Virus record (IMG/VR): IMGVR_UViG_2695420597_000002
Source of the DNA: a virus
Taxonomy: Duplodnaviria > Heunggongvirae > Uroviricota > Caudoviricetes
Reading direction: 5' to 3' (one strand)
Length of the DNA: 25,190 nucleotides
Positions within the stretch are counted from its first letter, which is position 1. Each line of letters begins with the position of its first letter. A program made the position numbers. Positions 24,401-25,190 of this stretch are shown here, piece by piece.

Positions 24401-25190
24401 AGACTGTGCTCAGAAAAAAGAGTTTCGCCTGAAGCAAACAAAGAAAAGAGTGACATTACTGAATTGCTCAGAAAACAGGTTAGACCAGATTGAAGCAATT
24501 TAGATAATCGTGCAGACTACGCCCCCTCATATCACATGGAAGGTACTACAATGGCTCAGGTTGCCATTTTTAAACAAATATTCGATAAAGTGCGAAATAA
24601 TTTAAACTATCACTGGTTTTATTCTGAACTAAAACGTCACAATGTCTCACATTACATTTACTATTTAGCCACAGAGAATATTCATCTTGTTCTTGAAAAC
24701 GATAATACGGTTTTAATAAAAGGACAGGGTAAGGTTGTAAATGTAAGATTTTCAAAAAATAAATGCCTTATAGAAGCCACCTTAAAAGGATTCAAATCAG
24801 GAGAGTTATCATTTTACGAATACAGGAAAAATCTTGCTACAGCAGGGGTTTTCAGATGGATTACAAATATCCACGAAAACAAAAGGTATTACTATACCTT
24901 TGATAATTCATTACTCTTTACTGAGAACATACAGAACACTACACAAATATTTCCGCACTAAATCATAACGTCCGGTTTCTTCCGTGCCAGAACCGGACTC
25001 GCTGGCATGATGAAATATGTGTACCCGGTAACCCCGGTGTGCATCGTTTTTGATTATTCCCGCACACTCGCGCAGAAGGAGTTCCCCGTCGGGCTACGGT
25101 CTCTGTTAATACGGGAATACGGCGACGATTGGATTTGCCCCTATATTTCCAGACATCTGTTATCACTTAACCCATTACAAGCCCGCTGCC

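What the first reader, a model, noticed from the sequence alone, without database searches (positions are those of the whole stretch)
24963..25190. IS2 sits where lambda carries bor
In lambda, as recalled, the serum-resistance lipoprotein gene bor follows the DUF1398 gene. Here the lambda-like sequence runs for about 170 bp past that gene and then switches abruptly to the IS2 end at 25130, so bor and possibly the lysis cassette are displaced or interrupted.
Basis: partly seen in the sequence, partly recalled or inferred. Interest (0 to 1): 0.4.

Follow-up and report, generated by a model that had tools for sequence, protein, structure and literature searches.

The report
IS2 insertion in Shigella sonnei prophage
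The window ends inside an ordinary, complete IS2 insertion sequence that landed in a non-coding spacer of a lambda-like prophage of Shigella sonnei; it did not displace bor, which this prophage lineage never carried, and the lysis genes resume intact beyond it.

Summary
Phage homology runs 168 bp past the DUF1398 gene and stops at 25129. Bases 25130-25190 are a 100% match to the right end (IRR) of IS2.

Public genomes identical to the window (S. sonnei CP104423, 12,710/12,710 bp) show a complete 1,331-bp IS2 flanked by a 5-bp target duplication, ACGAT. Beyond it the same spacer continues, followed by an 85-aa gene, a KilA-N gene, Rz, lysozyme and holin. No bor is found by tblastn.

Removing IS2 and one ACGAT in silico gives a sequence present in one piece in 37 complete E. 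coli genomes, so nothing was deleted.

In lambda the equivalent point is 122 bp upstream of the bor ATG, 6 bp past the annotated bor promoter. That promoter is degenerate in this window.

The slot after DUF1398 is a variable cargo slot. It holds bor in 929 E. coli genomes and a bor-less D3-type module in 720. Only one genome at 99.2% identity (a second at 96.2%) joins this window's flank to bor.

The window is a draft contig bounded by IS1 on the left and IS2 on the right, as expected for IS-expanded Shigella. This is ordinary and already present in public genomes. Any effect on late transcription is untested.

The parts
24536..24961 (+). DUF1398 (YbcV-like) gene, homologue of lambda lambdap78. 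It is the last phage gene before the insertion.
   Evidence: Pfam PF07166, E=3.3e-43. PGAP annotates 99.8%-identical DNA as a DUF1398 domain-containing protein.
24962..25129 (.). 168-bp non-coding spacer, conserved among lambdoid phages (about 83% identity to lambda). This is the left flank of the insertion.
   Evidence: Indels relative to lambda break the only ORF here, a 54-codon ORF starting at 25007. PGAP annotates nothing here.
25097..25123 (+). Position equivalent to the promoter annotated upstream of bor in HK629 and lambda (TGGACA-N15-TACAAT). Here it reads CGGTCT-N15-TACGGC, 2/6 matches to consensus in each hexamer, so it is degenerate.
   Evidence: HK629 regulatory feature and its sequence. 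Window sequence. The promoter scan finds no site here.
25125..25129 (.). ACGAT, the left copy of the 5-bp target-site duplication made by IS2.
   Evidence: In L010, L011, L012, L015 and L016 the 1,331-bp IS2 is flanked by ACGAT on both sides. The empty site in E. coli D3 has a single ACGAT.
25130..25170 (-). IS2 right terminal inverted repeat (IRR, 41 bp). It reads TGGATTTGCCCC... on the window + strand.
   Evidence: 100% match to annotated IS2 copies. IRR length of 41 bp is from PMC3299598.
25141..25190 (-). Stop codon and last ~15 codons of the IS2 transposase (OrfB / OrfAB). It is transcribed toward DUF1398, in the same direction as the phage late operon.
   Evidence: The CDS end in the reference copy, L004 position 2012, corresponds to window 25141. 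Full OrfA (HTH_Tnp_1) and OrfB (rve) are present in sister genomes.
25007..25190 (+). Chimeric ORF created by the insertion: 41 spacer codons fused to IS2 IRR sequence. It runs off the window end and is 69 aa in complete genomes. It is probably not a real gene.
   Evidence: Translation. Deposited as 'hypothetical protein [Shigella sonnei]' on 341 contigs, and as a 61-aa partial on 51 contigs.

Best explanation
The window is a draft-assembly contig of a lambda-like prophage of Shigella sonnei. It breaks inside a repeated element at each end: IS1 at 1-78 and IS2 at 25130-25190.

At 25129/25130 a complete 1,331-bp IS2 inserted by ordinary IS3-family transposition. That pathway runs through a figure-of-eight, then a minicircle, then staggered attack on the target. 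It duplicated the 5-bp target ACGAT.

The target was the non-coding spacer between the DUF1398 gene and the variable cargo slot that precedes the lysis cassette. In this lineage the slot holds an 85-aa gene and a KilA-N/ORF11CD3 gene, not bor.

Rz, lysozyme and holin follow intact.

The IS lies inside the late transcription unit, between the lysis genes and cos/Nu1/A, with its transposase co-directional with late transcription. Its only likely consequences are inferred, not shown. They are 1.3 kb of extra DNA and possible polarity on head and tail gene expression, unless Q-modified polymerase reads through.
For: Shown:
- The IS2 end is 100% identical to annotated IS2.
- S. sonnei chromosome CP104423 (L010) is 12,710/12,710 bp identical to window 12481-25190.
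- L010, L011, L012 (CP041322, S. sonnei per PMC8209639), L015 and L016 all carry a 1,331-bp IS2. Its ends are TAGACTGGCC... and ...GGCAAATCCA, it is flanked by ACGAT/ACGAT, and its right flank matches the E. coli D3 empty site.
- The IS2 copy is 99.4% identical to a PGAP-annotated IS2. OrfA and OrfB are intact in 4 of 5 genomes.
- The excised-in-silico site is present in one piece in 37 complete E. coli genomes at 98.6-99.1% identity.
- Far-side genes are an 85-aa ORF, KilA-N/ORF11CD3, Phage_lysis (Rz), lysozyme and holin.
- Bor gives no tblastn hit in L010-L019.
- The junction-specific chimeric ORF is recorded only from Shigella, on 341 or more contigs.
- No complete E. coli genome has the junction.
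- Window 1-78 is an IS1 end.
- IS1 and IS2 are among the five IS expanded in all Shigella (PMC7373316).
Against: - The window holds only 61 bp of IS2. The rest is inferred from genomes identical over the shared 12.7 kb, not from the same DNA molecule.
- One genome (L010) has two indels and a stop codon in its IS2 copy. This could be real decay or assembly error.
- An S. sonnei-labelled record also carries the uninterrupted 54-aa spacer ORF. The insertion may therefore not be universal in the species, or a second prophage may share the spacer.
- Functional effects were not tested.
Confidence: 0.95

Rival explanations
1. IS2 removed or split bor, either by IS-mediated adjacent deletion or by insertion into bor. 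The prophage would once have had lambda's DUF1398-bor-Rz order.
For: Lambda and 929 complete E. coli genomes have bor directly after DUF1398. One genome (SUISSEKPC3NDM5) joins this window's exact left flank to bor.
Against: - An intact 5-bp duplication ACGAT flanks a full-length IS2. Both flanks are contiguous in empty-site genomes, so no bases are missing.
- No Bor-coding sequence lies within 8 kb beyond IS2.
- The five closest relatives examined lack bor.
- The bor promoter equivalent is degenerate.
Confidence: 0.02
2. The junction is an assembly or window artefact, such as a chimeric contig end, rather than a real insertion.
For: The window ends only 61 bp into a multi-copy repeat and starts 78 bp into another. 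That is typical of short-read contig ends.
Against: The identical 26-nt junction occurs in three independent chromosome-scale assemblies (4.78-4.91 Mb) and five IMG/VR contigs, with the IS fully traversed. The junction ORF is on more than 400 deposited contigs.
Confidence: 0.01
3. The insertion is functionally consequential and retained for that reason. IS2 inside the late operon would act as a polar block that uncouples lysis genes from head and tail genes and helps lock the prophage in place. Alternatively it would alter expression of the neighbouring DUF1398/DUF3950 genes.
For: IS2 lies between Rz and cos, co-directional with late genes. The junction is widespread in S. sonnei assemblies. 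The prophage carries further IS1 copies.
Against: - No outward hybrid promoter is formed at the IRR junction (and reading of the sequence).
- Q-antiterminated polymerase generally ignores terminators (established lambda biology, from my own knowledge).
- Wide distribution is equally explained by clonal descent in a species undergoing neutral IS expansion (PMC7373316).
- There are no expression data.
Confidence: 0.1

Closest known systems
IS2 (IS3 family, IS2 group) of E. coli and Shigella
   Same: The 61 bp in the window are 100% identical to IS2. In sister genomes the element is 1,331 bp and 99.4% identical to an annotated IS2. It has the IRL and IRR termini, OrfA (HTH_Tnp_1) and OrfB (rve) overlapping reading frames, and a 5-bp target duplication.
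   Different: Nothing of substance differs. The copy at this site in one genome (CP104423) carries two indels and a premature stop.
Phage lambda right arm: Rz - bor - lambdap78 (DUF1398) - cos
   Same: The order cos - DUF3950/DUF1398 - spacer - (cargo) - Rz - R - S is the same. The spacer is ~83% identical to lambda up to the insertion point. That point maps to lambda 46875, 6 bp past the annotated bor promoter -10 and 122 bp before the bor ATG.
   Different: There is no bor. The cargo slot holds an 85-aa gene plus a KilA-N/ORF11CD3 gene. The bor promoter hexamers are degenerate. Homology to lambda ends 8-13 bp to the right of the IS2 target.
Escherichia phage ev099 (Radostvirus) and bor-less E. 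coli prophages (strains D3, ET82, MLI023K1)
   Same: Identity is 98.5-99.8% across terminase, Nu1, DUF3950, DUF1398 and the spacer. None has bor. MLI023K1 is collinear with the window from the IS1 junction to the empty IS2 site.
   Different: They lack the IS2. ev099 and D3 carry other cargo in the slot: a 174-aa gene and a 50-aa gene respectively.
IS expansion in Shigella (Hawkey et al. 2020, PMC7373316)
   Same: IS1 and IS2 are two of the five IS expanded in all Shigella species. The window is bounded by exactly these two.
   Different: That study concerns genome-wide patterns. This particular site is not discussed in the passages I read.

Membership tests
IS2 (IS3 family) | Nucleotide identity to IS2 across the element, about 1.33 kb | tested here: met
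   Window: 61/61 identical. Sister genomes with the identical junction: 1,331 bp, 99.4% identical to a PGAP-annotated IS2.
IS2 (IS3 family) | Imperfect terminal inverted repeats: IRR 41 bp and IRL 42 bp, with termini TGGATTTGCC... and TAGACTGGCC... | tested here: met
   IRR is read in the window at 25130-25170. IRL is read in L010-L016. Lengths are from PMC3299598.
IS2 (IS3 family) | Two overlapping reading frames, OrfA (HTH) and OrfB (DDE/rve), joined by a programmed -1 frameshift | tested here: met
   L011 products: 121 aa with HTH_Tnp_1 and 301 aa with rve/rve_3. PGAP notes 'programmed frameshift' in the reference copy. Only the last ~15 codons of OrfB lie in the window.
IS2 (IS3 family) | 5-bp direct duplication of the target | tested here: met
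   ACGAT lies on both sides in five independent records and once in the empty site.
IS2 (IS3 family) | Transposition through a figure-of-eight and a minicircle with the Pjunc promoter | not testable with these tools
   Mechanism taken from PMC3299598. Sequence alone cannot show it for this copy.
Bor / Iss serum-resistance lipoprotein locus | A Bor-family ORF adjacent to the DUF1398 gene | tested here: not met
   tblastn with lambda Bor hits lambda, HK629 and SUISSEKPC3NDM5 only. It finds nothing in L010-L019, which cover 8 kb beyond IS2.
Bor / Iss serum-resistance lipoprotein locus | The near-consensus promoter annotated upstream of bor (TGGACA-N15-TACAAT) | tested here: not met
   The window has CGGTCT-N15-TACGGC at the aligned position. 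The promoter scan finds nothing there.
Lambda-like (cos, Nu1/A terminase) prophage | Nu1 and GpA terminase, portal, S49 protease and lambda-type head and tail gene order next to cos | tested here: met
   Pfam families, PGAP annotation of 99%-identical DNA, and the ORF map.

The most novel reading that the evidence does not exclude
The IS2 copy sits in sense orientation inside the late operon, between the lysis and packaging modules. It lies 8-13 bp from a recombination joint of the bor/cargo slot. It could be more than a passive passenger in two ways. It could act as a polar barrier that helped immobilise and fix this prophage in S. sonnei. Or its position could reflect IS2 targeting of a structural DNA feature (curvature) that also marks moron boundaries in lambdoid phages.
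Probability: 0.07. Interest if true: 0.3.

Novelty: already known. Interest (0 to 1): 0.07.

Why it matters
It matters little beyond correct annotation. The result shows that the apparent 'missing bor' is not a loss event. It is the normal state of a bor-less lambdoid lineage that later took up an IS2 during the well-documented IS expansion of Shigella sonnei.

It also explains why the contig ends here, at a repeat-induced assembly break. And it flags a chimeric junction ORF that is propagated in databases as a hypothetical protein, and once as 'arginyl-tRNA synthetase'.

Tried and rejected
- Exact scans for the 26-nt junction in genome contigs (GTDB species representatives) and metagenome contigs found nothing. 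This is expected, because Shigella is not a separate representative there.
- Look-up of the minus-strand 67-aa junction ORF found nothing. Gene callers call the plus-strand 69-aa ORF instead.
It was replaced by the listing of cluster members.
- My first mismatch count of the IS2 copies without alignment (196 mismatches) was an artefact of offsetting indels. It was corrected by MAFFT alignment.
- I considered whether the insertion lying next to a mosaic joint is meaningful. There are at least three module boundaries within about 225 bp of this ~350-bp spacer. Landing within ~10 bp of one of them has a chance of roughly 10-15%, so I do not treat it as significant.
- I considered a hybrid outward promoter from the IRR -35. 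The flank offers TCGTCG at the -10 position and the scan finds nothing. Rejected.

Full report
**Observation**

The window's plus strand is the minus strand of the lambda map. It carries these features:
- terminase large subunit (21426-23351, -)
- Nu1 (23326-23871, -)
- the cos region
- a DUF3950/YlcI-YnfO gene (24260-24493, +)
- a DUF1398 gene (24536-24961, +; PF07166, E=3e-43)

Megablast of 24500-25190 against 5,426 complete E. coli genomes and 50,697 phage records gives matches that all stop at window 25129/25130. This holds for the closest hits (99.8% E. coli D3, 99.5% phage ev099) and for lambda (83.4%).

The last 61 bases (25130-25190) are 100% identical to sequence present in 3,161 genomes and annotated as IS2 transposase. 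In a reference copy the match begins at the first base of the element, and the transposase CDS ends 11 bp inside it on the opposite strand. The window therefore holds the IRR end of IS2, with the transposase on the window's minus strand.

**What lies beyond the window**

No complete E. coli genome carries this junction. Exact scans of the GTDB-representative and JGI metagenome collections found nothing. Two other routes succeeded:
- The exact terminase protein of the window is indexed in 7,057 blocks of public assemblies. These are mostly 10-50 kb contigs but include chromosome-scale (4.78-4.91 Mb) records.
- The 26-nt junction occurs in five IMG/VR contigs.

Chromosome CP104423 (L010) is identical to window 12481-25190 at 12,710 of 12,710 positions. 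CP041322 (L012) is a Shigella sonnei isolate (PMC8209639). The junction-specific ORF is deposited only under Shigella names, on 341 contigs full-length and 51 contigs as the same 61-aa truncated form seen here. The window is thus a typical S. sonnei draft contig. It also begins with 78 bp of an IS1 end, so both ends are repeat-induced assembly breaks.

**Anatomy of the insertion**

In L010, L011, L012, L015 and L016 the element has these properties:
- It is exactly 1,331 bp.
- It ends in TAGACTGGCC... (IRL) and ...GGCAAATCCA (IRR).
- It is flanked on both sides by ACGAT.
- It is followed by ACAGCGCATGATG..., exactly the sequence that follows the single ACGAT in the uninterrupted site of E. coli D3.

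The copy is 99.4% identical to a PGAP-annotated IS2. It encodes OrfA (HTH_Tnp_1) and OrfB (rve). Four of five copies are intact; the CP104423 copy has two indels and a stop.

Deleting IS2 and one ACGAT in silico yields a 964-bp sequence found in one continuous piece, at 98.6-99.1% identity, in 37 complete E. coli genomes. One of these, MLI023K1, is collinear with the window from the left-hand IS1 junction to the empty IS2 site.

This is a simple insertion with nothing deleted. It matches the defining features of IS2 given in PMC3299598: a 41-bp IRR, a 42-bp IRL, OrfA/OrfB, the two-step minicircle pathway, and 5-bp spacing of the catalytic centres.

**Was bor there?**

In lambda, bor (46459-46752c) does follow the DUF1398 gene lambdap78. 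The insertion point aligns to lambda 46875. That is 122 bp upstream of the bor ATG and 6 bp past the promoter annotated in HK629, TGGACA-N15-TACAAT.

In the window the aligned hexamers read CGGTCT and TACGGC, and no promoter-like site is detected there.

Beyond IS2, the S. sonnei genomes carry these genes, all on the window's minus strand:
- an 85-aa gene
- a KilA-N/ORF11CD3 gene
- Rz (Phage_lysis)
- lysozyme
- holin

Further on lie an IS1, a porin gene on the opposite (window + strand) and Q. A tblastn search with lambda Bor finds nothing in those loci, while it readily finds bor in lambda, HK629 and SUISSEKPC3NDM5.

All five close relatives examined (D3, ev099, ET82, GPEC657, PSS-07) also lack bor.

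At population level the slot after DUF1398 is a variable cargo slot:
- 929 genomes have the lambda-type DUF1398-bor arrangement.
- 720 have the bor-less D3 type.
- Only one genome at 99.2% identity (a second at 96.2%) combines this window's left flank with bor. In the 99.2% genome, SUISSEKPC3NDM5, the crossover lies 8-13 bp to the right of the IS2 target.

The lysis cassette is intact and merely displaced by 1,336 bp.

**What the insertion interrupts**

The only ORF cut is a 54-codon frame starting at 25007. Only the ev099 record annotates it; PGAP does not. Its frame is broken by indels in lambda, so it is probably non-coding. The insertion creates a 69-aa chimeric ORF that is propagated in databases.

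**How it works and likely consequences**

- Shown: the target duplication, the complete element and the orientation.
- From established knowledge: IS2 moves by asymmetric strand transfer to a figure-of-eight, then minicircle formation with the Pjunc promoter, then integration (PMC3299598).
- Inferred: the element sits inside the late transcription unit, between Rz and cos/Nu1, and is co-directional with it. It could impose polarity on head and tail genes unless Q-modified polymerase reads through. It also adds 1.3 kb to the packaged length. No hybrid outward promoter is formed at the IRR junction. None of this was tested.
- Background: IS1 and IS2 belong to the five IS expanded in all Shigella, with 229-348 insertions per reference chromosome (PMC7373316). 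A neutral, clonally inherited insertion is therefore the default reading.

**Novelty and verdict**

This is a known IS, in a known kind of prophage, at a site already present and machine-annotated in many public S. sonnei genomes. The 'bor displaced' reading is wrong. The finding is ordinary: interest 0.07, novelty 'already known'.

The only mildly curious residue is that the target lies next to a module joint of the cargo slot. I estimate a 10-15% chance of that happening by accident, given at least three joints in this short spacer.

Noticed in passing
window 1-78: The window begins with the terminal 78 bp of IS1, 100% identical to annotated IS1A copies. The window is therefore a draft contig bounded by IS1 and IS2. 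The same IS1 junction next to the tail-fibre genes occurs in E. coli strains (MLI023K1, MDR_56) whose IS2 site is empty, so the IS1 insertion may predate the IS2 one.
   Followed up: partly
window 868-1066 (-): Rfam family IS009 (RF02111) matches at 218 bits, full length, inside the tail-fibre-assembly gene (828-1409, -).
   Followed up: no
window 79-830: A very AT-rich stretch without long ORFs lies between the IS1 end and the tail-fibre-assembly gene. It is shared with E. coli prophages at ~98% identity. Its function was not examined.
   Followed up: no
L012 12126-21926 and L014 3905-13702 (break at window ~20392): In S. sonnei CP041322 and one draft contig, the portal gene of this prophage is truncated. 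It is followed by an element encoding integrase, AlpA, Bro-N, D5-type primase, SSB, a major-capsid (Phage_cap_E) protein and a decoration protein. It looks like a capsid-encoding satellite or island integrated into the portal gene.
   Followed up: no
window 25007-25190 (+) and L010 8136-8345: The chimeric spacer/IS2 ORF is deposited as a hypothetical protein of Shigella on hundreds of contigs. One UniRef entry names it 'Arginyl-tRNA synthetase', an evident misannotation.
   Followed up: yes
window 25130-25142 equivalent; L009 3296-3315: Homology between lambda-type (bor) and D3-type (no bor) sequence ends 8-13 bp to the right of the IS2 target. E. coli SUISSEKPC3NDM5 shows a crossover exactly there (...ACGATACAGCGCA|CCTGACATAC...), giving bor behind the degenerate promoter.
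   Followed up: partly
L010 1914-4100: In the same prophage, a porin gene (OmpD/NmpC-like, opposite strand) and a further IS1 lie between the Q antiterminator gene and the holin gene. They sit between the presumed late promoter and the lysis genes.
   Followed up: no
L010 6892-8222: The IS2 copy at this site in CP104423 differs from the other four genomes by a 1-bp insertion, a 1-bp deletion and a C-to-T change that creates a stop in OrfB. This is either decay of this copy or repeat-polishing error.
   Followed up: partly
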